A DNA stretch of 39,936 nt from an uncultured Cytophagales bacterium. Its GTDB lineage: Bacteria > Bacteroidota > Bacteroidia > Cytophagales > JAAEPT01. Location: positions 1-39,936 of the forward strand of contig CAYGKP010000001.1 of assembly GCA_964350605.1 (NCBI GenBank). The letters are read 5' to 3'. Positions 3,968 through 22,708 of the stretch are shown piece by piece; within the stretch, counting starts at the first letter, position 1; each line of letters begins with the position of its first letter. A model generated the notes under the pieces. That model did no database searches. It was not told the DNA's origin and saw nothing but the letters and a program-made list of their open reading frames with translations. The position numbers and the translations under genes were made by a program.

Positions 3968-5111
3968 ATTCCGGAAACGATTTCCAATCTGAAACCTTAT
4001 AATCCTTCAAGCCATAATACGGTTGTGTACCTGGATAGGTAAAAAGTAAGGTTTCAGCGATTGGATCAGTTGGGTTATACGTATCGTATTTTGCTCGGAA
4101 GCTTCTAGTTGCGGGAAGCAAATACAAAGATTGATCAATCGTTGTATCAGGCAGCTGATGAGTTGAATCCATTTGAGCTTGTAAGGCATCGACCGACACA
4201 CCAAAAACATTAAGAAACTCATCTTTAAAGCTCACCGAAAACTTCCTATCCTTCGGATGTGTATACCACTTTAATATATCCAGCGGGAGTGACGGGCTGG
4301 CTAGCGTTCGATACTCTAATCTTGTATTCAGCTCCGAGTTGATCGGCTTATTGTAGGCCGTTACAGCGTGATATTCAGGCCAATCGATCAGCACATCAGT
4401 CAATGCTTGGTACGGATCTAGATGCCAAGTCTCATGAACTCCTACTGCATTGAGAAACTCCTCCTCACTGCAATTATGAAATCGGCTGTACTTATCATTT
4501 TTCTCCTCTACCCACGTCTCCGTATCCCCAATAGTAACGACAAAGGGCTCAACCGAGAAGACACCACCGGTAAAGCCAAATCGATTGATTTTTCTCCCTC
4601 CTTCCAAAATGACTCCGAACTTTTGTTTGAAGGAGTAAATCCCATACTTCACGGATGGATGTTCTCCAAAATCATCACCCCCTGTAATGAGAAAGTCAGT
4701 ACCTGTTGGGAGCGGAGTGTCGCCCAGCGCTCCCTCGGGTGGTTTTCCACGCCGAAGCCTAATGACCATCGGATGATCCTCCCAAAACTTCCACCTGATC
4801 CGTCCCATGGGTGTTTTGTGCATCGCATCACCGATTTGAACAACACCCTGATCAACGTCACTTAGTGGAGTTGTCGAACTGACATCCTCCTTATCATAGA
4901 AAACTAAGTTCCCTCCAGTAAAAGTGGTTTTTAAAAACCTCCCCCCCGGACCAAACTCTTTTAGACCCGTGTATTTCACCTTATCTGAAAAGACAGGCTC
5001 AATATTGGTCCCAGCCAGGTAAATTTTTGTCAGAGTCCTTCGCTGCTCAACCGTTAAGGAAGAAAGGAAGTTGTTCAGAGCACTCCTTTGTTCATTTGTA
5101 AGGGTAACCAT
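3906..5111 (-). CDS. Hypothetical 401-aa protein with HExxH zinc-metallopeptidase motif; candidate effector
   Basis: Track ORF. HETWH is encoded at 4422-4436 (verified by reverse-complementing atgccaagtctcatg). No signal peptide (MVTLTNEQRSALNNF...). It starts 4 nt after the upstream giant gene stops. Its last ~35 codons are duplicated at 2765-2861. Confidence 0.8.
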   Translation of the reverse strand: MVTLTNEQRSALNNFLSSLTVEQRRTLTKIYLAGTNIEPVFSDKVKYTGLKEFGPGGRFLKTTFTGGNLVFYDKEDVSSTTPLSDVDQGVVQIGDAMHKTPMGRIRWKFWEDHPMVIRLRRGKPPEGALGDTPLPTGTDFLITGGDDFGEHPSVKYGIYSFKQKFGVILEGGRKINRFGFTGGVFSVEPFVVTIGDTETWVEEKNDKYSRFHNCSEEEFLNAVGVHETWHLDPYQALTDVLIDWPEYHAVTAYNKPINSELNTRLEYRTLASPSLPLDILKWYTHPKDRKFSVSFKDEFLNVFGVSVDALQAQMDSTHQLPDTTIDQSLYLLPATRSFRAKYDTYNPTDPIAETLLFTYPGTQPYYGLKDYKVSDWKSFPEYEEDGIPRVYAEPLPGITHP

Positions 5112-8100: not shown

Positions 8101-11100
8101 CTCGGCACCAGCGAGTTCAGAAAGCACGTTGATTCTATTCCCTCTAGCTTCGTATTCAAACAACTGAATCTTCGGATCCTCGGCTTGGGAAAGGCGTATA
8201 AACCGTTGATCGGTCTCCCAACTGTAGCCCTGTGGATCCGTTAGTTCCGTTTGAGAGTCGTCAGCGTTTAGAATGAATAGCCCATAATCGACTGGTTCTA
8301 GACTCGGGCTGTATGGGAGGCGCTCATCCTCCATTGAAGTTGGAAGGCTTAACTGCACATGAGAAGTCTCAAGATTTGCAGGAAAACCAAAAAAAGTACT
8401 GCCTGGATCGGCTCCTGAAGTGTACACGACTGAATAGATGTATCGATTGCCCTCGCTACCGATCAAATTATCTGGTGCGCACAATGTGGGCGCCCAAGCG
8501 CCTCCGCCAAGTGCGGTTAGAGCCGGAGAGAATTGCTGAAGGGCTCCGTCATTCTCGATAGGTGATGAGTCTGCTGCAACCGTACCTTCCTCTTCGTCCA
8601 GTTTCCACCAACCTACCAACCCTTCCGGGTCGATCGATTCGGCGCAACGTCCATACGAGAAATGATCTAACTGCTCCTGACTGCTGAGAGATCTATTGTA
8701 TATACGTGCATGGCTTAAGCAGCCACGATACTCCCTAGAATAGCCATAATCAGAAACGCCCTGAGGCCACCCTCCTAAGGCCAGATAAGCCAAATCGTTC
8801 AATTGTGCAGTCCCCGATCCAACGGGACCTACAAATTGGGTCAACTGATCACTGATCTGGAAGCGCCAGCCCTCACCTGTGCTGGGATTAAATGCTTTTG
8901 TGACGGATATAAATAGCCACTTTGGATCCAAAAAAGAGGGGAACCGAACCTCAGTACCCTGATTACCCACAGAACCGGCATCAAAGGCTAGCGAGTACAC
9001 TACCTCGTCAGCCAGTAAATCAACCCATTTAATAACGCGTACCGCTAGACGCAGCTCAACAGCGAAGTACTGAAACGATGTAACCAGTGCAAATGCGACA
9101 TCACCTTGCTCCCTGATTGTAATTGAGGAAGGGCTTGAGGTTATTCCTTGCCGCATTTCTGGTTTGATCCATATCTCAAAAGTCTGCAGGTTGTCTTCAT
9201 ATGCAGCGTTCGCCGGAATTGACACGCGTTGATCGTCGGCTGAAAAGCACAGCGAATACTTGTTCTCATTGTCAGATATGTCTCCACAAGGTGAACCTAC
9301 CCAAGCTCCTCCTCCCAGTTCTGTCAACTGGTAATTGTAATTCACCAGGTTAGCAGGGTTTTGGATGGTTGAACTGTCGGCTGCCAAGTAACCCTGTGCT
9401 TCGTCCAGTTTCCACCAACCCACAAGTCCAGTAGTGTCAACAGTTTGGGTGCAACGACCCAGCAAGTACTGATCTCGTTGTTCTTGTTCGCTTAGCGAAC
9501 GGTCGTATATCCTGATTTGGCCGATGCACCCGAGATAGTCTTTGTTGTTATTTTGGTAGATGTCATTCCTCAAACCACCCAGATAGATCGGGTCATAATT
9601 ATTGATCCCACCATAGAAAGAGCCTGAGGGTGCTCCCGGCAAAAAGATGGCATCTTGGTCGTTAAGAATTATCCTCCAACTCGCCGGACCAGTCGCCGAA
9701 ATCGATACGAACATCCACTCAGGGTCGTCCTGAGTTTCATACTCACTTTCTAGAGTTTGATAGCTGTTCCCCAATTGCACGAAAACCGAATAGCGCACCT
9801 TATCGACCGTCTGATCATACCATTTGGTACACTGCACAATAAGTCCGGCAGGCGTTCCATTGACTGGATTGTAGGTACTCATCTTAGAGATGAGTACCTG
9901 AGAGGCATAATACAAGTCTGAGAAGTTCACTGGTGGGGCGGTGAACTGTTCATCTAGATCTGGCTTAAACCATACCTCAATTGATTTCGCGTCATAGTAC
10001 TCGTTTCGATGGCCAATGTGAGCCCGATGACCTGCTACGCTCATGCAAAGCGCATAATCCAGTTCTTCCTCTGCCAGATCGGTGTCGATGTAGCCCAAGC
10101 CCAACATTCTCGCGACGTGAAAATCTTGCGCCACCGTTCGGAGCATATCAAGCGAGCTGATCTCTAACGCATTGGCCGCCTCTGGGTCTTCTCCATCCAG
10201 GGTCACAAGTTCCTCGCCCCCGTCCAATGGATAGCTCTTCAACCCGGTAGGGTTCGTGGAGTCCGTGCTTAGTTCAAGGTATTCGATTACCCCTGATTTG
10301 AGACCCTGCGAAGTAGTCCACTTGTCTTTGTAGTTGTCTACCCGCACCCTCGCACCATCGTTGTAGTGGGGCCATCTCTTATCGACCAAAAAGCGCTCGG
10401 GATTCTCAAGGCGCTCGAACACTTCTTCGTTATCCAAGCTCAAAGCAAAAGCCCCAAGCGACTTCCACTTCTCGGCTTCATTGACGGCGTGGAAGTAGGG
10501 CTCGTATAAGACGAAATGAGCTGAATTGACACGGGCATTCTCGGCTTTCCATCGCAAGCCACCGATGTGTTCGCCAAGTAGCTCAATGGTATCTGTAATG
10601 GCGGTCGGGTAGTCTTTAGATTTTCGAAATGCAATACCCGCCTCCAAACTGGGATATGGTTCGCGGTTTACTCCCTCCATGAGAAGAGACCCATTGTCCT
10701 GAGCCTGAACGTTTAGCTTTATGCTGAACGCTCGATCGGGTCGATCCAACCAAAAGACCAATTCATCCTGGTACTGGTCGAAAAAGTTCTGGCGTGTTGT
10801 TCCACTCGCGAAAATGTTACCCCCCACTGAAGCCTCAGCTACCTTATACTCTGACCTGTTGAGGAAATAGAGGTAAATTACGTGAGTGGGGTTGGAACCA
10901 GGTCCAGCCAGTTGAAGCTGGAAGCGCCACTGCATAACGTTTCCCCTACGCAGGACTTGAGGTATCACATTAGGGTCCAAAAGGTCGACCTCCAACGTCG
11001 TTCCGGGGTAAGGGATATATGGCGTGCGATACAATCGGACAAAGTCGTTTTCACGGTTGTACCCGTAGGTAGCTTCGTACTCCTGCTCGCTAGTGAGGTT

Positions 11101-11256
11101 TCCCTTAGGGAGGTGATTCTCTCCCAGCTCGTCTTCTAGCTCCCAGCGGGTGTAGATACCGCGTGGGGTGTAGTCATTACCTAGTGAGCCTGCCGCCTGC
11201 AGTGAAAGAAACGGCGATGGGAGGCGTAGTCGAGAGAGGAGTTGAATCTTGCTCAT
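5116..11256 (-). CDS. Giant hypothetical protein (2046 aa) with two LamG (Laminin_G_3 / concanavalin-A-like lectin) modules and FN3/Ig-like-looking C-terminal segments
   Basis: An uninterrupted 6.1-kb ORF. The LamG hallmarks occur twice (aa ~403-927, nt 8476-10050): ...YLGCIGQIRIYDRSLSEQEQ...GRC...GLVGWWKLDE..G..AADSS...GGGAW. The C-terminal part has proline linkers (PPPPPKLK, DDAPPPAPP) and beta-sandwich-like strings (TLSWPSTCKSGTYYLYKMTEAGQWALV...YHRFKVDVVNSGG). There is no convincing signal peptide (MSKIQLLSRLRLPSPFLSLQAAGS has arginines inside the hydrophobic stretch). No T9SS CTD, YD/RHS repeats or Walker motifs were noticed. Confidence 0.9.
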   Translation of the reverse strand: MSKIQLLSRLRLPSPFLSLQAAGSLGNDYTPRGIYTRWELEDELGENHLPKGNLTSEQEYEATYGYNRENDFVRLYRTPYIPYPGTTLEVDLLDPNVIPQVLRRGNVMQWRFQLQLAGPGSNPTHVIYLYFLNRSEYKVAEASVGGNIFASGTTRQNFFDQYQDELVFWLDRPDRAFSIKLNVQAQDNGSLLMEGVNREPYPSLEAGIAFRKSKDYPTAITDTIELLGEHIGGLRWKAENARVNSAHFVLYEPYFHAVNEAEKWKSLGAFALSLDNEEVFERLENPERFLVDKRWPHYNDGARVRVDNYKDKWTTSQGLKSGVIEYLELSTDSTNPTGLKSYPLDGGEELVTLDGEDPEAANALEISSLDMLRTVAQDFHVARMLGLGYIDTDLAEEELDYALCMSVAGHRAHIGHRNEYYDAKSIEVWFKPDLDEQFTAPPVNFSDLYYASQVLISKMSTYNPVNGTPAGLIVQCTKWYDQTVDKVRYSVFVQLGNSYQTLESEYETQDDPEWMFVSISATGPASWRIILNDQDAIFLPGAPSGSFYGGINNYDPIYLGGLRNDIYQNNNKDYLGCIGQIRIYDRSLSEQEQRDQYLLGRCTQTVDTTGLVGWWKLDEAQGYLAADSSTIQNPANLVNYNYQLTELGGGAWVGSPCGDISDNENKYSLCFSADDQRVSIPANAAYEDNLQTFEIWIKPEMRQGITSSPSSITIREQGDVAFALVTSFQYFAVELRLAVRVIKWVDLLADEVVYSLAFDAGSVGNQGTEVRFPSFLDPKWLFISVTKAFNPSTGEGWRFQISDQLTQFVGPVGSGTAQLNDLAYLALGGWPQGVSDYGYSREYRGCLSHARIYNRSLSSQEQLDHFSYGRCAESIDPEGLVGWWKLDEEEGTVAADSSPIENDGALQQFSPALTALGGGAWAPTLCAPDNLIGSEGNRYIYSVVYTSGADPGSTFFGFPANLETSHVQLSLPTSMEDERLPYSPSLEPVDYGLFILNADDSQTELTDPQGYSWETDQRFIRLSQAEDPKIQLFEYEARGNRINVLSELAGAEFDMSEASIPLRVGLEYRLLGESEWRKPELLFDDEYNSQKIVELDEFNEPEIIEIPESLLFPSQPVEEFYTHVETESGVHEYALYGVNIFQRVSPVGQLAQTDLTDFPLRNTLLPPANFAVQYIQKEKPLVLTSQAEQDELLARINQPLDEPELTRVTFLWNHVHQSAYRRADKIDFFFRLDPPDSVRGTIKEVVDNGEGDITLLTGFYRNYSTNPSSDVIPEISVGEEGKYLGGVLSTNESQEVFSVLQLNSGTEPQIQIKAVEQTATDDPSSNRTFLGRKEYSFPGADECFLMVENLLEPSNWPQKLAYTVDLIDLSNHEEVFEDENGNQETRFIGGIFEPAQVDPITETVFEPDSQGLLQEVQVFRGLYHIAYASGTSLADHPQTGVSWYQGTARISFSSTGQYDPNQTKELSVVTIVSQNPLEIYAVDANYDSDPIQTGVDVSVNFHPGYRLYLEAEPQQLPGLFQRVQILPGEGELSRVSLMAARSRDSINNISSDLSPASLLVAKKIVDPIPPDPPIGPLYATRPDRYGKSSYTFDIKVNEPERPPYGFVFYRTSQEALLNSLFETETAEDVKGNLIALEDQSVLSNYWSGLANLDVQGSGDTTPGAFKSYGANSYFIPPPDKSPTFSGELLTDDILPQNDPGFGTSAISKAFVAISNAFTPLTTQPVLFEFLEQGRQTSPELPKVVDSRGQLLPIESSEFNPFPMARRYAESGEVFVRFTDYKLDGAMHSQLYFYRAREIASDGQTSNPSAVSAPVKLLHALPPPPPKLKTLEVIGPRSSGAQALPRVAFQLSSYLPEENVTSIRMYRATTEAEARTVRTMKLATTVSVDSVADVFSDLEGKFPPYAETLFYRLVALRFIVNENEEPEVVPSIPSEIIRTRIVDDAPPPAPPISYDGGDPNATPDPILPTLSWPSTCKSGTYYLYKMTEAGQWALVNQVSSNEETIEYELGDFLPATNGSSDTIYHRFKVDVVNSGGIQNDYEEPLII

Positions 11257-11262
11257 AACCGC

Positions 11263-14200
11263 TTAAGGAATCAAAAGGGAAACTGGGCGCGTAACAGCTG
11301 AGCCCTTGGCCACGAACTGGTAGCCGTTGTAGATCATCTCTTGGAAGTGCAGCTCGATTTCATCGAACGGCAAGACATTGTAGGTGGTGGTGATAAAGAC
11401 CTGTGTGCAATCTTTCGAAGGGATAATGACAGGCGTGAATCCAGGCCCAAGATTAGGCTGCCCTGGTAGCGTGATACGCAGGACTTGAGAGAAGATTTGT
11501 TCTCTGGCTCTGGGGTCGCATAAAGGCTCTGGGCTTCGCACCAACATACCATAGGTAAATGATCCGCTTCCCGGAATTCGGAAGATGTTCACTTCGGTCG
11601 TTGTTGGCACTTCCAAGGCATCAAGGCCCAATCCTGCCCGCATTATGCGGTCAAATGTCATTGCATACTCTTGTCGCAAAGGGTCCTCAGGTGCCAGACT
11701 ATCTGCAAGAATCTGTGCCAGCACAGTTTGGTCCTTCTGAATGTGCTCTAAGTTGTAGATCGCCTCTCTCCCCTCTCCAAGGTCTATGCTTCCTATGTGC
11801 TCAGCGAACGAGCCGTAGCGTGACGTTTGAACCGCATACTTGTGGAGCTCATGCTCGACTCCCTCGAATTGCGATACCAGGTGAACCGTGTAGAGCTTCT
11901 CGCGTCTCAAGTCCGGTGGAGAGAGGAAGAAGTAATACCCCTTCTGAAGGTCGAACTGGAACTTTGTACAGTTAGCTCCATCTGGCAGGGAGTTAACAGC
12001 CATGTTGTGGATCACTTGCGTATCCAGAGAGTAGCTGGCTTCTTCCTCACGAATCCAACCATCCGATTCGCTGGTTAAGGAGAGCGACTGATTGGTTTCG
12101 GTTTCCTTAACGATCGCGTCAAGCTTATTGGCCAGTGCAGGGCTTCCCAGGTTGGCAGGCCAATCACCGAACAGATTGTACGTCCCGGGTTGTTTGAAGA
12201 ATACTCTAAGGTCATTGTGACCTTGCTTATAGTAGAGCGGTTTGGCACCAATGAGATTGCCGTCGACCGAGGGATAGGATCGCCCGAAATCCAGGTAGGG
12301 CTTCAATGAATAGAGCCCCTCGTTTTCCAAGTTTTCCAATTCGACTTGCTGAGCCGCCTCGACTGCATCGAAATAGTGCCGTATGGGGCCTCCGGTTTTA
12401 AAACCGAAGACATACGACTGATTGCTGGTATTTCCCTCGACTACATCACGCCCTTCAATTCGTATTGCGTAGGCACCATTCGGTCTCCAAACTGGTTGTA
12501 AAACATTCTGTAAACCGAGTCCGAAATAGGCCAGTTGTTCCTCACGAGTCTCATTGATCTCAACCTGCTGTTCATTGAAACGTCTGGTGGCTTCCGTTTC
12601 CCAACACAGCTCAATTAGAGACACTTCTCGATACTCCGCACCTCCACCAAGCACACTAAGTACTGCTTCCTGAGTCATATTGTCCAAGCCGCCATCAAAG
12701 GTCAAAGTTCGCAAACACGAAGGCTGCAGTCCACATAGCTCATACTGCCAGGCACCTCCATTCAATGCGGTCAGCGCAGGAGCAAAATCTTCAAGTATTC
12801 CATGATTGGCATAGGGCGAACTATCGTGTGCAACTGTGCCTTCCAATTCATCAAGTTTCCACCAACCGATTAATCCTGCCCGTTCGATATCCTCGGCGCA
12901 GCGGCCTCTCCTAAAGTGAGCCAGCTGCTGTTCTATCGAGAAAGCTCGATTGTAAAGTCTGGCTTGCGAAAGACACCCATCGAAGTCTTTGTTGGGTAAC
13001 CATGTGACGAAATCCGGAGAGTTACCCAAATGGATATGTGCCACGTCGACAAGGTTTGATGTGGCAAAGGGTCCAAGCGGATATACCCCAATGACGGGTT
13101 GATCCTGTATCTGGAAGTTCCACTTACTGGTGAAGTCAGTATCCAACTCATCGTTGAACCCAACACCTGAGGCCGAAATGAACAACCATTCCGGATCCTT
13201 GTCAGCTGGGTAACGCAGATCAGGTGGAGGGCCACCTGGAGGTAGCGCTGTACCTGCCTCTACGTAAAATGAGTAGACAATTTCATTGGTCGAACTGTCC
13301 AGCCATTTGATCGTCTTAACAAGCAGACGCAACCAGTTGCCTTGATAAGTCGTGGAAGAGAAAATCGTGAAGACCACCTCACCACGGTCAATCAAGGCAG
13401 TATAATCCGGTGAGCTTGTCACTCCGGTATCCAGAACTGGCTTGGCCCAAATCTCGAAGGCTCGGATGTTATTCTTATAGGGCGTGATCGCCGGGATTGA
13501 GACGCGGTGATCTGGGTCGCTCATGCACAAAGCACCGCCCCTAGCCGGAGGCTCCCCTGGAGGCAAACATATCTCCGTTGCCCAAGCTCCGCCTCCCAAA
13601 GCAGTCAGTGCTGGTGCGAATTGTTGAAGGACTCCGTTATTATCAAGCGGTGAAGAGTCCGCAGCGACTGTCCCCTCCTGCTCGTTGAGCTTCCACCAGC
13701 CAATCAGACCATTGGCTATAATCGTCTGAGCGCACCTCCCCAATTCATATTGAGCCCTCTGCTCAGACTCGAATAGCTCCCGATTGTACAGACGAACTTG
13801 CCCAATACAGCCCAGATATTCTTTGTTATTGTTGGCGAAAATGTCTGAGCGAAGGCTTCCAATAAAGAGCGGCTGATCATTCTCAACACCCAAGTATAAT
13901 CCACCAGCTGGACCAGAGGGGAATGAGTAGGCGGTCTGGCTGTTGATGATAATTCGCCAGCTTCCGTTGAAAGCTGCGGAAACGAAAACCCACTCGGGGT
14001 CCTCAAGTTGTTCGAACTCAACCTCACGATTCGCATAGTGGCTACCCATCTGTACGAATACTGCATACTTGACTTTATCGGTCGGTTGATCTAACCATTT
14101 AGTCACAGAAATGACTATACCATTTGGTAATTGGGTCGGGCCCGATGCGGACATTTTCGAGACGACAATTTGTGAGGCTTCGTATAGGTCGAAGTAATTG

Positions 14201-17200
14201 GATGGAGTCGCAGTGAACTGAGGATCAACCTCAGGCTTAAACCATGCTTCGACGGTTTTTACATCCAGGTACTCCGCGATATGTCCAACTTCAACCTTCT
14301 GACCTGAAGCATTGAAACACAGGGAAGTTCCTTCTTCTATCAACGGCAAGCCTTCCTGCCCGCCACACGTTTCTTCTACCCAGGCACCGCCGCCAATTTG
14401 TGTGCGGCCACTCGTGTAACCGGTCAGTACGCCATCTGAGTTTGTCCATGCCAGCCCCGAATTGGTCGCCTGGGTTCCCTGTAACTCGTCCAGTTTCCAC
14501 CAGAGACGAAGGTTCGTAGTATTGGCATTCACTGCACAACGTCCCCCTTCATACTGATCATCAATCTCTTGGGCGGAGAGAACAAAATCCTGGTAGTACT
14601 GGATGTGATCGACATACCCCTCAAAGTCTCCCTCTCCGAGGATGATTGGGCCGTCGTTGTATACATCTCCGGGTGTTCCTGTCGACTCTGACACCCACGT
14701 TTCAACTGAAGGCTGACCGTTTACAGTCAAATAGTAATCGGCTAGTTGAGTACCTGTTCGCTGAACAGTGATCATGTGCCAACCTTCAGCCTCCGCAACA
14801 ACAAACCTCTTGACGATTCGGATGTGTCCGTTCCAACGGTTGTTGTAGTGAAGCTCGACAAACAAGCTATATCCAGATGCCTGAGTCGGAGCCAGAACGG
14901 TCCGAATAGTAATCCCATGACCATCGGAGGCCATCTTCTTGAATAACACTTCCAAGTGGTCGTTGATATCTTGACCTACCTGTCCATTGACTAGCGTCTC
15001 ATCAATCGGTGTCTGCTTCAACCATGCAACGATCGAAAAAGAGCCGCCGAATGTGAACCCACCATGGTTGGGGCTTGCAACTTGTACAGACTCCCCAACT
15101 TGAATGTGTAGTGCAGGCGAACTCTCCTCTTCGGTTTGTAGACCGCAAGGGTCGACCCTGTATGTCAAACGATAAGCCGTCACCGGTTCGGGAAACCGAA
15201 TCGAAACTGTCATCGGCTTTTCCAACTCGTCCTCTTGGAGTGCTACAAGTGCCTCCGTTAAGTTGGTGCCAGGGGCATACTCAGACTCCTCTTCGACTAC
15301 TTGAATGGCCTTACGGCTTGAGGCAGATGGAATGTCGATTTTGATCCAGGCCTTCCGATCAAACTTCCATTCGCCCTCGCGATAGCGTCGGAAGCCGTTG
15401 GATTGGCCTTGCCAGTTCAAGCACTCCCAGTCGACCAACGGCTGGGTACAAAACATCAAGCTCGCATTGAGGCCATAGTCCTCAACGATATTGGTCTCAT
15501 CAGGTCCGGTACCCTGACTTAAGAAGGCAAAGGGGTTTCTTGCAAGAATTCGCAGATGTGTCTTTTGTCTTGGCTGCTCATGTGCCTGCCAAGCACCGAT
15601 ATGCAATAAGCTTGCTGGGACAGAATCTAGGAAGGCTTTGATCGGCAATGCCTCGTATGGGTCATATGGCACCCAAATATCCCCGACAGGGTCGCGGGTA
15701 AGAATTTCAACTTTGTCGAGGTGAAAGCGATGTTGAACTTGGTCGGAATGCCCTCTACGAGGAGAAATCTTTACCACATTATCGGTCGGAACGAACCTGC
15801 CTGTCATTCTTGACAGTACTGGATCTTTGCCCTTCGGCTTTAGACTATAATTAAATTGGATATCGACGAAGCTATCCTGCGGAATGATCGTCTCTTCGAG
15901 CAAGTCAAACCAGGATTCCTCAAGTGCACTTCCCAGATAAGCGATGGGAAACTCCTCTAGCGTTGTCATGTTCAACGCCTTCACTGCATTGCTCGGCTCA
16001 AGAATCTGGAATGGCTCAAGTTGGCGTCGACGGTCGAACACCCATCGAAGCGAAACTCGGATACCTTTCTTCTTCCGCTTAAACGGAATCTTGATCTTTA
16101 CCTCAATGTACCCTTCGATAATGAAAGGTCTGGGTGCTTCCGCTCCCAAATAGGCCCCCACTCCAAATCCGAATCTGAATTTCCAGATTCCGATTTCTAG
16201 CCCCCCGGCGATTAGAACGTGACCACCAGCTTGAACGGGTTCGGTGCTAATGCGCACGCCCATATCCAGGTAAGCATATAGTCGAAAGCGAATCGGGCCA
16301 AAACGTTTATCAAGATTGAAACTTGCACCTGCGCCCAAAGCCACCCCTCGAGCTGAAAGCTGCAGGTATGCATTCAAATTGAATACTCGGAGTATTCTGG
16401 CACGGATTCGCTTGGAGGGCGGGCTGGCCTCACCAATGTTGAGGTACCACCCCCCCGGATTCTGAAAGAAGAATCCGAACTCCATGTTGGCGGAAATATC
16501 GGCGATCACGCCGCTCGACTGTGGTAATCGAGCCTGAACACCAGCACCACCGGTAATTGACTCTGGGCTAACAGCCAAAAAGGCACTGAAAGGCGGGTCC
16601 TCTCGATCATCCAATCCGACCTGTCGACGGAGAATACCCGCTTGACCTTGGAGCAGTAAGGTCTCGGGAGCGGTTAGTAGTAGGAATACTTTGCTTGAGA
16701 AAATTCGAGGGTCTCCTTTTGTGGCAATTGCTGTGCCCGCTCCTCCTACAAAGCCTGGCTCTTTTGAGAACTTGTCGACGGTGATGCCCTCTTTCGGCGG
16801 GGCTTTGTAATACTGCCACCAACTTGCTGAGTCCGCTAAGCCAATGGCCGATTTATCAGCGATGTACCCACTGCCGACTAGGCCTCGAAAGCCATAAATT
16901 CCTAGCCCCGTCGGACCTAGGGGAATTGGAGTTGGTAAATTGATTTTTGCATCGACTAGAAAAGAAGGATCATCTGGGACGTACGAAATGTCACCTTCAA
17001 ACTTGAGCTTCAAGCGAGGAAAGCTAACACCGACGGCTCCTCGATACTCACTAACCGAGCCTCCTTGCTCCTGGCCAAGTAGGGCCAAATACCCCTCAAT
17101 AATCGCAAGAGCTTGCTCTTTAGAGGCCGTGCCAGGGATAATTAGGCGTATCTCAAGACGTTGAATGCGAAGGAATGAGTGGAAAGCCTTTCCGGCACCT

Positions 17201-19056
17201 GCATCGGTATCAATTGTGAAAAAGAACTGGATGCCATCCCCTCGGACGTCTAATCCCGCTGGCTGAAGATTCAAGCTTCCATCAAAACCGAAATAGGCGT
17301 ACTGTCGAAGTTGGCCTTCATGATCTTGTTCATAGGTCCCGAGTGTCAACGCGCTGACCTGTATTTTGGCAGGGCCCAGTTTCAAGTCGAACGTGCGCGG
17401 CAAAAGCTGTACGCCGCCATCGAACTCAATCCTGCCATTCGAGTAGATGCGTAGTTTGGAGATCGGAATCTTACCAGGGAGCAACTTATCGGCAAGTCCA
17501 CCAGGGACAGGAGCTGTGATCTCCAGCTCCCCAGCTACTTCAAGAGCATAGACCTCGCCGAGCTTTTCCAGAGAAAGACTACGAAGAGTAAGCTTGAAGA
17601 CTTCGTTCTCTTCCGAGGGGAAAGAAAGCACAAGCCCTTCTGGCTCAATAGCTGCGAACGTAAAATCCCCGTTTTCGAAAAACTGAATGGTAACCTCCAA
17701 CTCCGCGGGATTCCCTTCTGAGTCTTTAACATTGAAGTTCTCCGGAAAATTGAGCGTGGCTCTGGCGGAAGAGCGCACCAGACTACCCTGACGAAACTCC
17801 ACCTCAGCTTCTTTCAACTCCAGACCGAAGCCACCTAAGGTCGCATCGTAGGAGTCATATTCATCCTCACCTACTACCCGAGTTTCCAGTCCGATCGTCC
17901 CACTGAAGCCACCTGAGCCGATGATGAGATTACGCCCTTTGAGAATGGCTTGCTCCGTAGGGTTCCCATTCTGCGTTAGGATAGGCGGAAACCCAACTTC
18001 GATCTCCTCGATGAAGACTCCTCGGAAGTCAGCCGGATAACCTGCATCCTGAATGGGTTGAATATTGGTAGTTCGGGAAAGGTCTAGCCAAACATTGTCG
18101 ACTTGAAAAGTGAAGCCCGAGTTACCGATTTGAACTGTAGGGCCAGAAACTCCCTGGTCAGTATCGATACCCGTTGTGACCTGAGTTGACTGATCAATGC
18201 CGAAGCTGCCACGTGTGTCAAAAGTGAATTGAGCGGGCTCTGTTCTCAGAACATACTTAGACGGCTCGGCGTAAGGTTCGCCGCTTGGCTGAAGCGGCAG
18301 TAAAAAGCTTCGAGGAATGGCAACCTCCAAACCAAGTGAAGTGCCCGCCCTTACTCTCGGAACTAGCATCTCCTGCAAACGGCTCAAAATTGGCAGTCCT
18401 CCTCCGTCGTAAAGGCGATTGATGGCATCAAGTCCGCTCGACAGATCGGAAGCAGGCAGCACGTAGATCGTAAAGAGTATCTCCCGAACAGACGGCAGCG
18501 ACCCACTCGCGTCGATCTGTGCTATTAGGTCATCTATCTGGTCAGAAAGCTCAGTTGCTGACGGCATGGATACCGAGCTACCCCCGTATTCTGCATTGAT
18601 TTTATTGACTAGGCTTTGAACATCCTCAGAGAGCTCAATCTCTAAAACCGCGTTGGTCAGCAAGCGCTCGTCTAGCGGATCGGTTACTGTGAGCAGGAGG
18701 TCGAAAAAGGACTGCGGCGAGCCATCGAAGCGCGAAAATTCGAAGTCGTCGAAGTAGCGGAGGATCTCCCAATCAAACTGAAGGGTGAGGTCGAATTCGG
18801 TGGTGTTGGGAAGGGTGCCGGGATTAATGGAGAATTCCAGATCGAGGCCGGGAACCGTGAAGCCAATGTTCTGGAAGGCGATGAGTTGGACGTAAAAGGA
18901 ACGCGTTGACCCGGCGGTGTTGACGAATTGAATCTCCTTAACAAAGAGGTTCGGGATCAGCGCATCAAGCCCTCCGTCGATGAAGCTCAGGGCCTCGGGC
19001 AAATCGTCTGCAGAAAGCAGCGAGGTGACAGGTAGGTAGTTGTGGGTGGAGGGCAT
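11263..19056 (-). CDS. Giant hypothetical protein (2597 aa): ~1300-aa beta-rich N-terminal region of unknown family, three LamG modules, ~490-aa C-terminal region
   Basis: An uninterrupted 7.8-kb ORF. The LamG array covers aa ~1320-2110 (nt 12727-15099), with repeated ...R(L/I)YNR..S..EQ...GRCA...GLIGWWKL(D/N)E..G..A.DSS...GGGAW...C. The N-terminus MPSTHNYLPVTSLLSADDLP has no signal peptide. The start ATG (19054-19056) overlaps the upstream stop as TAATG. No catalytic or NTPase motif was recognised. Confidence 0.9.
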   Translation of the reverse strand: MPSTHNYLPVTSLLSADDLPEALSFIDGGLDALIPNLFVKEIQFVNTAGSTRSFYVQLIAFQNIGFTVPGLDLEFSINPGTLPNTTEFDLTLQFDWEILRYFDDFEFSRFDGSPQSFFDLLLTVTDPLDERLLTNAVLEIELSEDVQSLVNKINAEYGGSSVSMPSATELSDQIDDLIAQIDASGSLPSVREILFTIYVLPASDLSSGLDAINRLYDGGGLPILSRLQEMLVPRVRAGTSLGLEVAIPRSFLLPLQPSGEPYAEPSKYVLRTEPAQFTFDTRGSFGIDQSTQVTTGIDTDQGVSGPTVQIGNSGFTFQVDNVWLDLSRTTNIQPIQDAGYPADFRGVFIEEIEVGFPPILTQNGNPTEQAILKGRNLIIGSGGFSGTIGLETRVVGEDEYDSYDATLGGFGLELKEAEVEFRQGSLVRSSARATLNFPENFNVKDSEGNPAELEVTIQFFENGDFTFAAIEPEGLVLSFPSEENEVFKLTLRSLSLEKLGEVYALEVAGELEITAPVPGGLADKLLPGKIPISKLRIYSNGRIEFDGGVQLLPRTFDLKLGPAKIQVSALTLGTYEQDHEGQLRQYAYFGFDGSLNLQPAGLDVRGDGIQFFFTIDTDAGAGKAFHSFLRIQRLEIRLIIPGTASKEQALAIIEGYLALLGQEQGGSVSEYRGAVGVSFPRLKLKFEGDISYVPDDPSFLVDAKINLPTPIPLGPTGLGIYGFRGLVGSGYIADKSAIGLADSASWWQYYKAPPKEGITVDKFSKEPGFVGGAGTAIATKGDPRIFSSKVFLLLTAPETLLLQGQAGILRRQVGLDDREDPPFSAFLAVSPESITGGAGVQARLPQSSGVIADISANMEFGFFFQNPGGWYLNIGEASPPSKRIRARILRVFNLNAYLQLSARGVALGAGASFNLDKRFGPIRFRLYAYLDMGVRISTEPVQAGGHVLIAGGLEIGIWKFRFGFGVGAYLGAEAPRPFIIEGYIEVKIKIPFKRKKKGIRVSLRWVFDRRRQLEPFQILEPSNAVKALNMTTLEEFPIAYLGSALEESWFDLLEETIIPQDSFVDIQFNYSLKPKGKDPVLSRMTGRFVPTDNVVKISPRRGHSDQVQHRFHLDKVEILTRDPVGDIWVPYDPYEALPIKAFLDSVPASLLHIGAWQAHEQPRQKTHLRILARNPFAFLSQGTGPDETNIVEDYGLNASLMFCTQPLVDWECLNWQGQSNGFRRYREGEWKFDRKAWIKIDIPSASSRKAIQVVEEESEYAPGTNLTEALVALQEDELEKPMTVSIRFPEPVTAYRLTYRVDPCGLQTEEESSPALHIQVGESVQVASPNHGGFTFGGSFSIVAWLKQTPIDETLVNGQVGQDINDHLEVLFKKMASDGHGITIRTVLAPTQASGYSLFVELHYNNRWNGHIRIVKRFVVAEAEGWHMITVQRTGTQLADYYLTVNGQPSVETWVSESTGTPGDVYNDGPIILGEGDFEGYVDHIQYYQDFVLSAQEIDDQYEGGRCAVNANTTNLRLWWKLDELQGTQATNSGLAWTNSDGVLTGYTSGRTQIGGGAWVEETCGGQEGLPLIEEGTSLCFNASGQKVEVGHIAEYLDVKTVEAWFKPEVDPQFTATPSNYFDLYEASQIVVSKMSASGPTQLPNGIVISVTKWLDQPTDKVKYAVFVQMGSHYANREVEFEQLEDPEWVFVSAAFNGSWRIIINSQTAYSFPSGPAGGLYLGVENDQPLFIGSLRSDIFANNNKEYLGCIGQVRLYNRELFESEQRAQYELGRCAQTIIANGLIGWWKLNEQEGTVAADSSPLDNNGVLQQFAPALTALGGGAWATEICLPPGEPPARGGALCMSDPDHRVSIPAITPYKNNIRAFEIWAKPVLDTGVTSSPDYTALIDRGEVVFTIFSSTTYQGNWLRLLVKTIKWLDSSTNEIVYSFYVEAGTALPPGGPPPDLRYPADKDPEWLFISASGVGFNDELDTDFTSKWNFQIQDQPVIGVYPLGPFATSNLVDVAHIHLGNSPDFVTWLPNKDFDGCLSQARLYNRAFSIEQQLAHFRRGRCAEDIERAGLIGWWKLDELEGTVAHDSSPYANHGILEDFAPALTALNGGAWQYELCGLQPSCLRTLTFDGGLDNMTQEAVLSVLGGGAEYREVSLIELCWETEATRRFNEQQVEINETREEQLAYFGLGLQNVLQPVWRPNGAYAIRIEGRDVVEGNTSNQSYVFGFKTGGPIRHYFDAVEAAQQVELENLENEGLYSLKPYLDFGRSYPSVDGNLIGAKPLYYKQGHNDLRVFFKQPGTYNLFGDWPANLGSPALANKLDAIVKETETNQSLSLTSESDGWIREEEASYSLDTQVIHNMAVNSLPDGANCTKFQFDLQKGYYFFLSPPDLRREKLYTVHLVSQFEGVEHELHKYAVQTSRYGSFAEHIGSIDLGEGREAIYNLEHIQKDQTVLAQILADSLAPEDPLRQEYAMTFDRIMRAGLGLDALEVPTTTEVNIFRIPGSGSFTYGMLVRSPEPLCDPRAREQIFSQVLRITLPGQPNLGPGFTPVIIPSKDCTQVFITTTYNVLPFDEIELHFQEMIYNGYQFVAKGSAVTRPVSLLIP

Positions 19057-19544
19057 TACTTCACAGTTCTTAGTGAGTCAACGTAATCATGCATTGAGAC
19101 CATTAGATTCTTGGACATAATGACTATTATACCTCCACTTTCTTTCTCATATATGTTTATATACCTGTAGTCACTTTCTAAATATATTTTTGGACTATAC
19201 CTTTTCTCAGATAGTATCCTGTACCTGAAGTGTGAGATATCACAACTATCTCTTATAAGGAAAGAGTTAATATATCTTCCTTCCGCATTTAGGTACTTCC
19301 TTTCTGTTATTTCTGAAAAACAAGGAGTAACAAATTGAAAATATATATCGAAATGTCCATCCCACTTATCAGGGACCCAGCTTTCGTCTCCCTTTTCGTA
19401 ATTTCTAGATACTTCAACCACAAATACAGTATCTGTGCTAGCCAACCTTTTATTATATACTAATCCATTGCTAGAGTTTTCTAGGTAAAAAACCTTAACC
19501 TCATGACAGGAGGACAGGATAAGTAGTATCGCAAAGTATTTCAC
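19056..19544 (-). CDS. AT-rich small lipoprotein (162 aa); candidate immunity or partner protein for the upstream metallopeptidase module
   Basis: Track ORF. MKYFAILLILSSCHE looks like a short signal peptide plus lipobox LSSC. Sample 60-nt lines here give about 35-37% G+C by hand count. It starts 5 nt after the 1052-aa gene ends. Its stop shares one nt with the giant gene ATG. Confidence 0.75.
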   Translation of the reverse strand: MKYFAILLILSSCHEVKVFYLENSSNGLVYNKRLASTDTVFVVEVSRNYEKGDESWVPDKWDGHFDIYFQFVTPCFSEITERKYLNAEGRYINSFLIRDSCDISHFRYRILSEKRYSPKIYLESDYRYINIYEKESGGIIVIMSKNLMVSMHDYVDSLRTVK

Positions 19545-19549
19545 TCGAA

Positions 19550-22500
19550 CTAATCAGTATCTGTAACCGGGTATCGGTATGCAATCAAATTATCAAACAT
19601 CTGTTTGAACTGAATTGGAGAAAACCTCCGGTTCTCAACTGCAGTTAGCGGAGGAGAGGGGTACATCATATTCTCGTACTGATCAACAAAATCAGTATTA
19701 CCAACTGTCAAATTCTTATTGTACTCAGAATGAGGCTTAATATCGGATATGTTCTCAGAAGGCGGAACTGAGGGCGGACTAGATAAGTAAAAATTCTGAT
19801 TCAGCTCATAGCTATCCTCAGTATCCCGCTTGTTTAAATAGTACAACCTCTGATTACTTAGTGGTTGGCCAAATACCTCGTCAAATTGTTGACTAGAAGT
19901 GCCAGATCTCCTACCCATTTGAGTGTGCAGAGTATGCTTTAATCCAGCCACATGTCCGAGTTCGTGATAAACAGTATACCGAGCAATATTAGTATTCAAT
20001 AGCGGATGTGAGGTGGCAATTCCACCAATTGAATGTAAGTTGATTAGTGCTGGTCCAAGGTCTTGATCTTTGATAAGATCATACCCCTCCTTGGCAAGAT
20101 AGAAGGCAGGAAATGGCCCTCCATTTGTTGAGAACGGTATGCTAAGTTGTATAAGATTGTCTACTGGTGCTTTCAGTATCGAAAGGCCTCTGGTCCCAAT
20201 CAACTCCTCCCTTTCTGCGGGATAATCATAGCTACCATCTCTCGACTTCTTAGCTAGCAGATCGTTTACCTTCTCAGTTGGATGTCTCTGTCCAATATTA
20301 TGAACCCATGGGGAACGGCCCTCCACGATATTAAGATCATCCTTTAAGAAAGTCTTTCCTTGAGATTCTATGTAAGTCTTTGCATTATTTATCTTTTCCA
20401 AATCGATATCATCATCATTAGCAAAATTCTCGACGAACAAAACGGACAATGAAAATGTGCCAGCCAGTAGGTCATGAGCAATTTCTTCAAAAGTATCTAC
20501 CACTTCTATTTGATCAATCAAATATCTTATCCTGTAATTTTTTCCCTCATAAGTAGCAGTAGCTAGGTCTGGCAAATATTCAAATGTGCTTTCAGTATCT
20601 AATGGTTCTTTGCATTGCTCTTCCAAGAAATCCACTGGATCAAACTCTATACTTGTATAGTCCTTCATGGGTGCATCTTCGTTTGGAAGACGATTATAAA
20701 TGTATGTAGGCTTGTGAACATATACCTTGCCAATTCGGACGAAAATAACTCTCTCTTCATTCGGCTGACCTTCATTCTGGATATAAGGCCAAATCCCAAT
20801 GTATTCATTCGAGCTCTCAGGATCTACAAGCTTCCATCCTACTCCATGAACTGAACGCGCTCTTGGATTGTAATAGGCTACGTGCCAATTGGCTGTCAAA
20901 GAGGATATTTCAACAGCATTATCTGCAATCCATTGAGAGTCAATCTCCAGGCTAACAATAGAAACTTGCCTGGTAAGTATACCGTCCTGGTCAAGTTGTG
21001 AGAACACAAACAAGTGCTGTAGGCCCAATAAGCTTGGCACTTGATGAGGCGAAAGAACCAAATCGCTACTTTCCAGATTCCGGAGAAAATTATTCTGATC
21101 TGAAAATGCCGGAAGAGTAAGATTGTACTCAGGTCCAACTAAAGTCGACCACTTAAAGCCCTCTGTGGGTGATAGCAAGTAATGTATCTTGTCCTCCTCT
21201 ACGACAAGAACAGTAGAAACAAAACCAGAAAAACCCAACTCTTCCATTCCATCAACAAATCGTTGATAGTGCAGATTTGCTGTCTGAAACCTAGGCTTAG
21301 AACTCTCAGAGAAGTCCCATGGAATCACATCGCTAATTACCTCTGGAAGTACGAATGTGTTGTCGAGGTAGTAGTTAGCATTAATCACAGGAGAACTCTT
21401 AGGCGGCGCGACCTTCTCCGGGTCGATCCGCTGGATGTAAGACAACTTCACATAACTGGCAATCGAGTTACTGCCTGCAGCCGCAGTGGCCAGTTCGATC
21501 TCATCGGTCCAACCACTCGTAAACGTTGGCTCGATGTACCTGGCCTTGTGACGCGGCACCTCCGGGAAGCGCTTGTAGGGGCTCGCTCCATCCAGATAGA
21601 CCAAGGGCTTGGTGTTGTCGGCCTCTGGTAAAGAGAGGCGTATGTGCGTCTTGCTATTTGCAACCCCCGAACTCAACTCCGAACCCTCAATGATGTGAAT
21701 CGGCCAGTCATTGCTTAGGTAGGCTCGCCCCGAAGGGGCCGTGTTCCCATCGAATGATAGATTGACGTTGACGTTGTAGCCTGCGTAGCTACTATAGTTA
21801 CTGTAGTAGTTGAGGCTATAGCTGTTCTCATTCCGAATGTCCAGATACACCCGGCCGGGGTGAGCGAACTTGGTCAACACGTCGGTGTAGAGGTCTTGAT
21901 CAGTCAGGGTCGAAACCGTGGAACCCTGCAAAACTCGAACACCACTACGTGCGTGAAGGCCATAGAATGCTGCGGGGTCGATGTAGTGAATCACCTTCTC
22001 CCTCGCCGCACGGTTCTCCAGTGCGTCAGTTGCGTCTTGAGGCGTAGCGATCGTTGGGGCGGCCGTAACGGTAACCAGGCCATCAGAAGCCCGCAGCTCC
22101 CCAAGCGTAGGATTGCTCCCATATGCCTCCAGAACGATTTCAAAACCAATCTCGCTGCTGGCCGCAAACTCACCCAAAGTCTGGCCTGCTCGAACACGCG
22201 TCGGCTTGAACGCTGTTAGATGGTTAAAAAAAAGTGCGTCGATCTTCTCAGAATCAAGCTTTTGATCGTCACCAGTTGCCGATGCTGTGAAATGCAGCCC
22301 CAGTGTTTCTTCGGTTGGATCAACCTTAGCGACACCCAAAGCGTCTGCATAAGCTGCCTGGTTCTCGTGTAACTGTGCAGCCAAGTCATTCGCTGTTGTC
22401 AGCACGATCGCCCCTGAGCCTTGGACTAAACTACTCTTCGCAACACCCCTGTAGACAAAGTACTTGACCCGAAAAGGCAGGTGAGGATTGTGATTAAATG

Positions 22501-22708
22501 GTTTGATAACAAGGTTAAGCAGAGTCGAGGACTGCTCTTGAGCGTACAGCAATCCTCCTACACACGCGATCACTGGTGCGCCTTGACCCGATGATACTGT
22601 ATGCTTGGACGATAAATGAAATTCAGTACTTGAAGCGGGCCCATAGGCCTGGCCAGTGCTTTGCACATCCAGTAAGCTGGGGTCGGTAAAAAAGTAGGGC
22701 TTGGCCAT
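19550..22708 (-). CDS. Chimeric 1052-aa protein: GC-rich N-terminal ~430 aa of unknown family + AT-rich C-terminal ~620 aa ending in a metzincin-type zinc metallopeptidase motif
   Basis: Track ORF. HELGHVAGLKH (HExxHxxGxxH) is encoded at 19934-19966 (verified by reverse complement). Composition changes near 21350-21450. Sample lines give about 58-63% G+C at 21.5-22.1 kb and about 33-43% at 20.4-21.3 kb. No signal peptide (MAKPYFFTDPSLLDVQ). Confidence 0.85.
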   Translation of the reverse strand: MAKPYFFTDPSLLDVQSTGQAYGPASSTEFHLSSKHTVSSGQGAPVIACVGGLLYAQEQSSTLLNLVIKPFNHNPHLPFRVKYFVYRGVAKSSLVQGSGAIVLTTANDLAAQLHENQAAYADALGVAKVDPTEETLGLHFTASATGDDQKLDSEKIDALFFNHLTAFKPTRVRAGQTLGEFAASSEIGFEIVLEAYGSNPTLGELRASDGLVTVTAAPTIATPQDATDALENRAAREKVIHYIDPAAFYGLHARSGVRVLQGSTVSTLTDQDLYTDVLTKFAHPGRVYLDIRNENSYSLNYYSNYSSYAGYNVNVNLSFDGNTAPSGRAYLSNDWPIHIIEGSELSSGVANSKTHIRLSLPEADNTKPLVYLDGASPYKRFPEVPRHKARYIEPTFTSGWTDEIELATAAAGSNSIASYVKLSYIQRIDPEKVAPPKSSPVINANYYLDNTFVLPEVISDVIPWDFSESSKPRFQTANLHYQRFVDGMEELGFSGFVSTVLVVEEDKIHYLLSPTEGFKWSTLVGPEYNLTLPAFSDQNNFLRNLESSDLVLSPHQVPSLLGLQHLFVFSQLDQDGILTRQVSIVSLEIDSQWIADNAVEISSLTANWHVAYYNPRARSVHGVGWKLVDPESSNEYIGIWPYIQNEGQPNEERVIFVRIGKVYVHKPTYIYNRLPNEDAPMKDYTSIEFDPVDFLEEQCKEPLDTESTFEYLPDLATATYEGKNYRIRYLIDQIEVVDTFEEIAHDLLAGTFSLSVLFVENFANDDDIDLEKINNAKTYIESQGKTFLKDDLNIVEGRSPWVHNIGQRHPTEKVNDLLAKKSRDGSYDYPAEREELIGTRGLSILKAPVDNLIQLSIPFSTNGGPFPAFYLAKEGYDLIKDQDLGPALINLHSIGGIATSHPLLNTNIARYTVYHELGHVAGLKHTLHTQMGRRSGTSSQQFDEVFGQPLSNQRLYYLNKRDTEDSYELNQNFYLSSPPSVPPSENISDIKPHSEYNKNLTVGNTDFVDQYENMMYPSPPLTAVENRRFSPIQFKQMFDNLIAYRYPVTDTD

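What the first reader, a model, noticed from the sequence alone, without database searches (positions are those of the whole stretch)
19934..19966. Full metzincin consensus HExxHxxGxxH near the C-terminus of the 1052-aa protein
Seen: the reverse complement of 19934-19966 reads CAC GAA CTC GGA CAT GTG GCT GGA TTA AAG CAT, which is HELGHVAGLKH. The motif lies 138 aa from the C-terminus and is preceded by ARYTVY. Established: HExxHxxGxxH is the zinc-binding signature of metzincin metallopeptidases. Inference: the C-terminal domain is a zinc protease. A Met-turn candidate exists downstream (TQMGRR, YENMMYP) but cannot be assigned by eye. The surrounding ~480 aa of the AT-rich module has no motif I recognise.
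Basis: partly seen in the sequence, partly recalled or inferred. Interest (0 to 1): 0.6.

Follow-up and report, generated by a model that had tools for sequence, protein, structure and literature searches.

The report
Orphan metzincin-like peptidase warhead
The last ~270 residues of a 1052-aa protein most likely form a very divergent zinc protease of the metzincin type, sitting on a swapped-in AT-rich cassette with a lipoprotein gene, inside an uncharacterised operon with two giant proteins.

Summary
HELGHVAGLKH is encoded at 19934-19966 (-), aa 915-925 of the 1052-aa ORF 19550-22708.

The strict motif occurs only once in this 2.36-Mb genome. Chance expectation is 2e-4 for this protein and about 0.3 over all long frames of the genome.

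No curated model reaches threshold, but eight of the nine sub-threshold hits are metzincin families. A profile comparison against 31 Peptidase_M43 (pappalysin/cytophagalysin) domains gives 89% probability over 209 columns. It aligns the zinc motif, YENMMYP with the M43 Met-turn, and FSPIQFKQM with the C-terminal helix. None of 350 controls keeping the motif reached this score. Only the genome's three true M43 enzymes score higher.

Limits: the C-terminal 483 aa have no homologue among 1.84 billion representatives, so conservation is untestable. AlphaFold2 failed (pLDDT 31). M43 membership fails: no cysteines, no calcium-site residues, below cut-off.

Context: the first ~470 aa are shared by about 20 protein clusters carrying other hydrolases (M23, S8, amidase). 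These lie next to variable small exported proteins and two conserved giant proteins. This fits a polymorphic effector with an immunity partner, but that part is inference.

Metzincin-type domain: about 0.75.

The parts
19550..22708 (-). 1052-aa ORF (P0001), no signal peptide; the stop codon is 19550-19552
   Evidence: the start is supported by alignment with homologues' N-termini (MAKPYFFTDP vs MANVHFFTDP)
21299..22708 (-). Conserved family module, aa 1-~470, GC 0.53; new fold with a partial LytM/M23-like sub-domain
   Evidence: 26-36% identity to about 20 protein clusters. AlphaFold2 with a 17-sequence alignment gives pLDDT 75.8 and pTM 0.83. Foldseek finds only partial LytM/M23 matches, prob 0.95-0.96.
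20357..21298 (-). Middle region, aa 471-784, GC 0.40; start of the AT-rich cassette; no recognisable domain
19553..20356 (-). Metzincin-like catalytic domain, aa 785-1052, GC 0.42, no cysteine
   Evidence: hhalign vs M43 profile: prob 89.2, score 47.4, 209 columns; controls; sub-threshold metzincin hits; Cys count
20009..20047 (-). LINLHSIGGIATS (aa 888-900): strand-like segment aligned with the M43 segment just before the active-site helix
   Evidence: shuffling only the upstream part drops the score from 47.4 to a mean of 38.0
19934..19966 (-). Extended zinc-binding motif HELGHVAGLKH: H915, E916 (general base), H919, G922, H925
   Evidence: only strict occurrence in the genome
19658..19678 (-). 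YENMMYP (aa 1011-1017): proposed Met-turn (M1014 or M1015), with Y1016 as a possible tyrosine switch
   Evidence: Aligned to the M43 NYMDY block. The pattern N.M.[YP].{6,14}F[ST]..[QS]...[MLIVF] hits only this site and two of the genome's true M43 enzymes.
19598..19624 (-). FSPIQFKQM (aa 1029-1037): proposed start of the metzincin C-terminal helix (M43 consensus MFTxGQxxRM)
19056..19544 (-). 162-aa gene (P0013), GC 0.34, lipobox LSSC; starts 5 nt after the 1052-aa stop and its stop overlaps the next ATG; candidate immunity or inhibitor lipoprotein
   Evidence: the genes in this position are non-homologous between loci and several carry export signals
11263..19056 (-). 2597-aa giant protein with a Laminin_G_3 domain; conserved partner of the family
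   Evidence: 32% identity to the L003 giant; at least 352 clusters
5116..11256 (-). 2046-aa second giant protein with LamG domains
   Evidence: a second giant follows the first in L003, L050, L051, L081 and L082

Best explanation
Residues ~785-1052 form a highly divergent metzincin-fold zinc endopeptidase, closest to the pappalysin/cytophagalysin family (M43). Inferred mechanism: H915, H919 and H925 hold the zinc. E916 activates the water. G922 allows the turn after the active-site helix. M1014 or M1015 in YENMMYP forms the Met-turn under the metal. F1029-L1041 begins the C-terminal helix that ends the protein. The domain differs from secreted M43 enzymes: it has no cysteines, no calcium-site residues and no pro-segment, and the loop between the third His and the Met-turn is about 40 residues longer. 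It is the C-terminal warhead of a modular protein. The first ~470 aa define a rare family whose other members carry M23, S8, amidase, GH19-like or C15-like domains. That family is encoded next to two conserved giant proteins. The warhead, the 314 residues before it and the downstream lipoprotein gene form one AT-rich cassette that starts at the module boundary. Shown: the motif, the profile similarity beyond the motif, the modular family, the synteny and the compositional break. Inferred: zinc binding, proteolysis, the role as a toxic or lytic effector, and the lipoprotein as its immunity or inhibitor partner.
For: Motif and frame. It is unique in the genome, with p = 1.9e-4 for this protein. 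Eight of the nine sub-threshold hits are metzincin families: Reprolysin_5 (E 0.005), Reprolysin_3, M43, M57, M10, archaemetzincin, serralysin and CpaA. hhalign vs a profile of 31 M43 domains gives prob 89.2, score 47.4 and 209 columns, with the zinc motif, Met-turn and C-helix blocks in register. Nulls that keep the motif: shuffled flanks give mean 34.7, max 46.0, 0/150 at or above the real score; real-protein decoys with the motif implanted give mean 34.3, max 47.1, 0/200. True Reprolysin_5 members score 32-52 against the same profile. Among all 22 HExxH windows of the genome, only the three real M43 enzymes score higher, and every other zincin scores 34.4 or less. The Met-turn/helix pattern finds only this protein and two of the true M43s in 1.82 million residues. 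Modular family with other hydrolases. Synteny with variable small exported proteins and giant proteins. GC break at the module boundary.
Against: No curated model reaches its cut-off; the best is 17.4 bits against a cut-off of 27. PDB sequence matches are only motif-level, E 0.65-0.94. A custom M43 HMM gives only 12.4 bits over aa 888-952 and nothing for the Met-turn block alone. Shuffling only the downstream part lowers the hhalign score by just 2.7, so the Met-turn assignment rests mainly on a pattern defined after seeing the sequence. The best decoy reached 47.1, close to the real 47.4. AlphaFold2 gave no usable model, pLDDT 31. There is no homologue in 1.84 billion representatives, so conservation of the motif is untested. 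No secretion signal or known delivery domain was found. Toxicity and immunity are untested.
Confidence: 0.72

Rival explanations
1. The motif is a chance match in a domain that is not a metallopeptidase. The C-terminal half is an orphan domain of some other function.
For: The genome-wide chance expectation of the strict motif is 0.33 over all long frames. No curated family threshold is met. There are no homologues and no usable structure model. One decoy scored 47.1.
Against: 0 of 350 motif-preserving nulls reach the real profile score. The similarity extends about 130 residues upstream. The downstream Met-turn/helix pattern is otherwise exclusive to two of the genome's true M43 enzymes. The motif lies at the expected distance from the C-terminus, with a helix-like end.
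Confidence: 0.13
2. The domain is a real metzincin, but it is not an interbacterial toxin. It would be a housekeeping part of the giant-protein machine, for example a processing or maturation protease or an envelope-remodelling enzyme that lets the machine assemble, as the LytM/CHAP hydrolases of conjugation systems do.
For: Hydrolase domains in family members lie on either side of the conserved module, and several are peptidoglycan hydrolases (M23, Amidase_2, GH19-like). The conserved module has a partial LytM-like fold similar to PrgK and phage M23 proteins. The family is always found next to the giants where flanks are known, in 4 of 5 loci.
Against: The warhead plus the lipoprotein gene form a compositionally foreign cassette. 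The small downstream genes differ between loci and carry export signals. That pattern is typical of toxin-immunity pairs rather than of a fixed machine part. Most giant-pair loci lack this family altogether.
Confidence: 0.2
3. The operon is an anti-phage defence system. The protease would be an abortive-infection effector, and the giant proteins would be sensors.
For: The operon lies next to an MmeI/PglX-type methyltransferase-restriction gene. In L003 a SMEK_N/NB-ARC STAND-type gene lies just upstream. The island has lower GC than its flanks and is absent from 60 relatives.
Against: No PADLOC model matches any of the seven proteins. Exported lipoprotein partners and peptidoglycan-hydrolase warheads point to the periplasm or another cell, not to an intracellular response.
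Confidence: 0.1

Closest known systems
Lower pappalysins / Peptidase_M43 (ulilysin, mirolysin, cytophagalysin; PF05572)
   Same: It shares the extended motif HExxHxxGxxH followed by Thr. An ENxMxY-type block lies downstream, with a Tyr two residues after one candidate Met (the 'tyrosine switch' position described in PMC11674741). An F-[ST]-x-x-Q-x-x-x-M C-terminal helix start follows. This is the best profile match of the families tested: score 47.4 against 34.4 for Reprolysin_5.
   Different: It scores below the Pfam cut-off, 13.2 against 23 bits. It has no cysteines, whereas M43 catalytic domains have two conserved disulfides. The DTP calcium-site residues are replaced (FDEVFGQP). H925 to the Met is 89-90 residues, against about 43-55 in M43. 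It has no signal peptide, cysteine-switch pro-segment or T9SS tail. It sits at the C-terminus of a signal-less multidomain protein.
Polymorphic toxin systems with metallopeptidase toxin modules and downstream immunity genes (Zhang, Aravind and colleagues 2012; from my own knowledge)
   Same: A conserved module is combined with different enzymatic end domains in different homologues. There is a sharp GC break at the junction. A small, variable, exported protein is encoded immediately downstream. A displaced gene-tail repeat lies elsewhere in the operon.
   Different: No known trafficking domain (PAAR, VgrG, Rhs, LXG, TPS and others) or secretion system is detectable. The conserved module is internal in the ~2700-aa members. 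No Tox-MPTase or other toxin family model matches. Toxicity and immunity are untested.
LytM/M23-containing cell-wall hydrolases of transfer machines and phage tails (PrgK of E. faecalis, PDB 8s0u; phi29 gp13, PDB 3csq)
   Same: The conserved N-terminal module shows partial fold similarity: Foldseek prob 0.95 to 8s0u and 0.96 to a phage M23 protein. Family members also carry peptidoglycan hydrolase domains.
   Different: Only about 195-276 alignment columns of the 520-residue model match, with TM-scores of 0.2 or less. No His is invariant in the module, so the M23 metal site is not conserved. This concerns the N-terminal module, not the metzincin-like domain.

Membership tests
Metzincin clan (MA(M)) | Extended zinc-binding motif HExxHxxGxx(H/D) | tested here: met
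   HELGHVAGLKH at aa 915-925
Metzincin clan (MA(M)) | Met-turn with a conserved Met downstream of the motif, followed by a C-terminal helix | tested here: inconclusive
   YENMMYP and FSPIQFKQM align with the M43 Met-turn and helix, and the pattern is otherwise exclusive to two of the genome's true M43 enzymes. However, a block-only HMM finds nothing, and shuffling the downstream part costs only 2.7 score units.
Metzincin clan (MA(M)) | Catalytic-domain fold: four/five-stranded sheet, backing helix, active-site helix, C-terminal helix (PMC11674741) | tested here: inconclusive
   AlphaFold2 single-sequence model has pLDDT 31. hhalign prob is 89% over 209 columns, with 0/350 nulls as high.
Metzincin clan (MA(M)) | Zinc binding and Glu-dependent peptidase activity | not testable with these tools
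   Needs purified protein and an E916A control
Peptidase_M43 / pappalysins | Score above the curated family cut-off (PF05572, 23 bits) | tested here: not met
   13.2 bits, E 0.085, motif region only
Peptidase_M43 / pappalysins | Two conserved disulfides in the catalytic domain (PMC11674741) | tested here: not met
   No cysteine in aa 785-1052
Peptidase_M43 / pappalysins | Calcium-site residues (D...DTP segment after the third His) | tested here: not met
   The aligned segment reads FDEVFGQP, so D and T are replaced
Peptidase_M43 / pappalysins | Tyrosine two residues after the Met-turn Met ('tyrosine switch') | tested here: inconclusive
   Met if M1014 is the turn Met (M1014-M-Y1016); not met if it is M1015, which is the register hhalign chose
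Peptidase_M43 / pappalysins | Secreted zymogen with signal peptide and cysteine-switch pro-segment | tested here: not met
   There is no signal peptide. The domain follows 784 other residues, and the only cysteines are C49 and C699.
Polymorphic toxin systems | Shared module combined with different toxin or enzyme domains in homologues | tested here: met
   S8, M23 with GH19-like, Amidase_2 with C15-like, PF27118, or this orphan domain
Polymorphic toxin systems | Cognate immunity gene immediately downstream | tested here: inconclusive
   A 162-aa lipobox protein sits on the same AT-rich cassette. Genes in this position are non-homologous between loci. Function is untested.
Polymorphic toxin systems | Recognised trafficking or secretion domain | tested here: not met
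   No Pfam, NCBIfam, PADLOC or PHROGs match

The most novel reading that the evidence does not exclude
The metzincin-like module may be one interchangeable warhead of a so far undescribed effector system. Its core would be a pair of giant (~1700-2600 aa) proteins that are widespread in Bacteroidota and beyond (at least 352 clusters, all annotated hypothetical). A rare ~470-aa adaptor module would couple diverse hydrolases (metzincin, M23, S8, amidase) to this pair. Each warhead would be matched by its own exported immunity protein. That would amount to a new route of interbacterial antagonism or envelope attack.
Probability: 0.3. Interest if true: 0.75.

Novelty: new variant of a known kind. 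Interest (0 to 1): 0.45.

Why it matters
If confirmed, this would be a metzincin catalytic domain too divergent for any curated model and without a single detectable homologue. It would lack the disulfides and calcium site that stabilise its closest relatives. That would extend the known sequence space of the clan and give a compact, cysteine-free scaffold. It also gives a first functional handle on an unannotated operon type with two giant proteins that is common in Bacteroidota: an enzymatic activity with a one-residue knockout (E916A) and a candidate inhibitor partner.

Tried and rejected
- AlphaFold2 on aa 570-1052 without an alignment gave pLDDT 31 and was unusable, so it was not sent to fold search.
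- An exhaustive phmmer search of aa 570-1052 against 1.84 billion representatives returned only the protein itself.
- A PDB sequence search gave nothing for the whole protein and only motif-level hits for the tail, to ADAM33 and archaemetzincin at E 0.65-0.94.
- A six-frame search of 400 genomes of the class with aa 804-1052 gave only weak hits. On inspection these were unrelated proteins (a permease, a transposase and others) or motif-level hits to M43 enzymes.
- A custom M43 HMM scored 12.4 bits, and a Met-turn-block HMM found nothing.
- A Reprolysin_5 profile scored only at the motif-only baseline, 34.4.
- PADLOC and PHROGs found nothing meaningful for the seven operon proteins.
- The conserved-module profile does not match the proteins upstream of giant pairs in Sporocytophaga or Sphingobacterium.
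- The N-module is absent from 60 related genomes.
- A literature search for DUF6603/PF20248 returned no paper.
- TQMGRR was rejected as the Met-turn. M931 is only 6 residues after H925 and does not align with any family Met-turn.

Full report
**Observation**

The minus strand of 19934-19966 encodes HELGHVAGLKH. It lies in frame at aa 915-925 of a 1052-aa ORF, 19550-22708.

From the genome's own amino-acid composition, the strict pattern HExxHxxGxxH has p = 1.8e-7 per position. That gives 1.9e-4 for this protein and 0.33 for all 1.82 million residues of stop-to-stop frames of at least 100 aa in the 2.36-Mb genome. This is the only occurrence. The motif alone is therefore suggestive but not decisive.

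**Library searches**

- The whole protein matches no Pfam or NCBIfam model at E <= 0.01.
- The whole protein matches no PDB chain.
- For aa 785-1052 alone, eight of the nine sub-threshold hits are metzincin families. They are Reprolysin_5 (17.4 bits, E 0.005, cut-off 27), Reprolysin_3, Peptidase_M43, M57 and M10 in Pfam, and archaemetzincin, serralysin and CpaA in NCBIfam. All are centred on the motif. The ninth hit, Melibiase_2_C, is unrelated.
- PDB hits for the tail are ADAM33 and archaemetzincin, at E 0.65-0.94.
- An exhaustive phmmer search of aa 570-1052 against 1.84 billion representative proteins returned only the query. The C-terminal half is a sequence orphan, and conservation of the motif cannot be tested.
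- AlphaFold2 without an alignment gave pLDDT 31.

**Evidence beyond the motif**

One weak six-frame hit (L007) was a typical M43 cytophagalysin-like enzyme. Its tail reads MYENYMDY...MFSKEQANQM, which resembles QYENMMYP...RFSPIQFKQM in the window protein.

I collected 31 M43 catalytic domains from genomes of the same class and built a profile. hhalign of aa 780-1052 against it gives probability 89.2, score 47.4 and 209 aligned columns. The following are in register:
- HELGH..H with the M43 zinc motif.
- LINLHSIGGIATS with the segment before the active-site helix.
- ENMMYPS with qNyMDYs.
- RRFSPIQFKQM with kMFTxGQxxrM.

| Comparison against the M43 profile | Result |
|---|---|
| Real sequence, aa 780-1052 | score 47.4 |
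| Motif fixed, both flanks shuffled (150) | mean 34.7, SD 3.5, max 46.0, none reach 47.4 |
| Real-protein windows from the genome with the motif implanted (200) | mean 34.3, SD 3.4, max 47.1, none reach 47.4 |
| True Reprolysin_5 members, a different metzincin family | 32-52 |
| All 22 HExxH windows of this genome | three real M43 enzymes at 301, 291 and 107; then this protein at 47.4; all other zincins 34.4 or less |

- The same sequence against a Reprolysin_5 profile scores only 34.4, which is the motif-only level.
- Most of the extra signal comes from the ~135 residues upstream. Shuffling them alone gives a mean of 38.0, while shuffling the downstream part alone gives 44.7.
- A block-only HMM of the Met-turn region finds nothing. 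Support for the Met-turn therefore rests on the hhalign register and on a pattern test. N.M.[YP].{6,14}F[ST]..[QS]...[MLIVF] occurs three times in 1.82 million residues: in this protein and in two of the genome's M43 enzymes, each downstream of its HExxH. That pattern was defined after seeing the sequence.

**Anatomy and inferred mechanism**

- H915, H919 and H925 are the zinc ligands, E916 is the general base, and G922 allows the turn.
- M1014 or M1015 is the Met-turn, 89-90 residues after H925. M43 enzymes have about 43-55 residues there.
- Y1016 falls at the 'tyrosine switch' position if M1014 is the turn Met (PMC11674741).
- F1029-L1041 starts the C-terminal helix, and the protein ends 11 residues later.
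- The domain has no cysteine, whereas M43 domains have two conserved disulfides. The DTP calcium-site segment reads FDEVFGQP.
- There is no signal peptide or pro-segment.
- It therefore fails M43 membership, while looking like a metzincin that works in the same way.

**Context**

- The first ~470 aa (GC 0.53) are shared at 26-36% identity by only about 20 protein clusters among 5.8 billion.
- In those proteins the module is N-terminal (1000-1400 aa proteins) or internal (about 2700 aa). It is combined with Peptidase_S8, M23 plus a GH19-like region, Amidase_2, a C15-like region or PF27118.
- With a 17-sequence alignment the module folds confidently (pLDDT 75.8, pTM 0.83). It has no full structural relative, only a partial LytM/M23-like match.
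- GC drops from 0.53 to 0.40-0.42 at about nt 21300, the module boundary. It stays low through the 162-aa gene (0.34) and returns to 0.51 in the next gene.
- The 162-aa gene has a lipobox (LSSC). It starts 5 nt after the stop of the 1052-aa gene, and its own stop overlaps the ATG of the 2597-aa gene.
- In three other loci a family member is likewise followed by one or two small proteins and then two giant proteins. The small proteins are not homologous to one another, and several carry export signals.
- The first giant is 32% identical between loci. It belongs to a family of at least 352 clusters, all annotated hypothetical.
- Giant pairs also occur without this family upstream.
- The module is absent from 60 related genomes. 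The operon has lower GC than its flanks and lies next to an MmeI/PglX-type gene.
- No defence or phage model matches.

**Reading**

The most economical explanation is a polymorphic, modular effector. Its C-terminal warhead here is a divergent metzincin, acquired as a cassette together with a lipoprotein that probably neutralises it.

I put the metzincin-domain claim at about 0.72-0.8, and the effector/immunity reading at about 0.5. The rivals are a chance motif (about 0.13), a machine-maintenance or processing protease, and an anti-phage system.

Noticed in passing
window 2739-2855 and 3911-4027: A 117-nt direct repeat at 77% identity. The 3' tail of the 401-aa gene is duplicated downstream of the two small lipoprotein genes, like a displaced cassette remnant.
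   Followed up: partly
window 11263-19056 and 5116-11256; L003, L050, L051, L081, L082: Tandem giant proteins (about 1700-2600 aa) form a conserved pair in many Bacteroidota and some other phyla. There are at least 352 clusters for the first giant, all annotated hypothetical, and some carry DUF6603. No PDB, PADLOC or PHROGs relative was found beyond LamG domains.
   Followed up: partly
window 21299-22708 (aa 1-470 of the 1052-aa protein): The conserved module folds confidently (pTM 0.83) but has no full structural relative. Part of it resembles LytM/M23 domains (PrgK 8s0u, a phage M23 protein) without an invariant His. It may be a degenerate, non-catalytic LytM-like domain. The strongly conserved motif is RVYLDIRNENGYSYNYY.
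   Followed up: partly
window 3906-5111 (-): The 401-aa protein with HETWH shows no metallopeptidase signal. It scores 15.3 against the M43 profile and has no Pfam hit at E <= 1. It is followed by two weakly related lipoprotein genes (175 and 131 aa, 22-25% identity).
   Followed up: partly
window 1-2421 (-): An MmeI/PglX-type N6-adenine methyltransferase-restriction gene (MmeI_N, MmeI_hel, MmeI_Mtase, Eco57I) runs off the window start. It is directly adjacent to the operon.
   Followed up: no
L003 5958-9302: In the metagenome locus with the M23-carrying family member, a SMEK_N/NB-ARC STAND-type NTPase gene and a two-component system lie immediately upstream.
   Followed up: no
L082 22551-25186: Downstream of the Sphingobacterium giant pair lie four tandem ~160-aa genes on the opposite strand, next to an 1133-aa gene. 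This resembles an immunity-gene array.
   Followed up: no
own genome contigs C38, C79, C101: The genome has three ordinary M43-type peptidases (frames of 1723, 783 and 485 aa). None has the Gly of the strict motif: HEVGHYLNLRH, HEMGHAFYLPH and HEVGHWLNLRH.
   Followed up: yes
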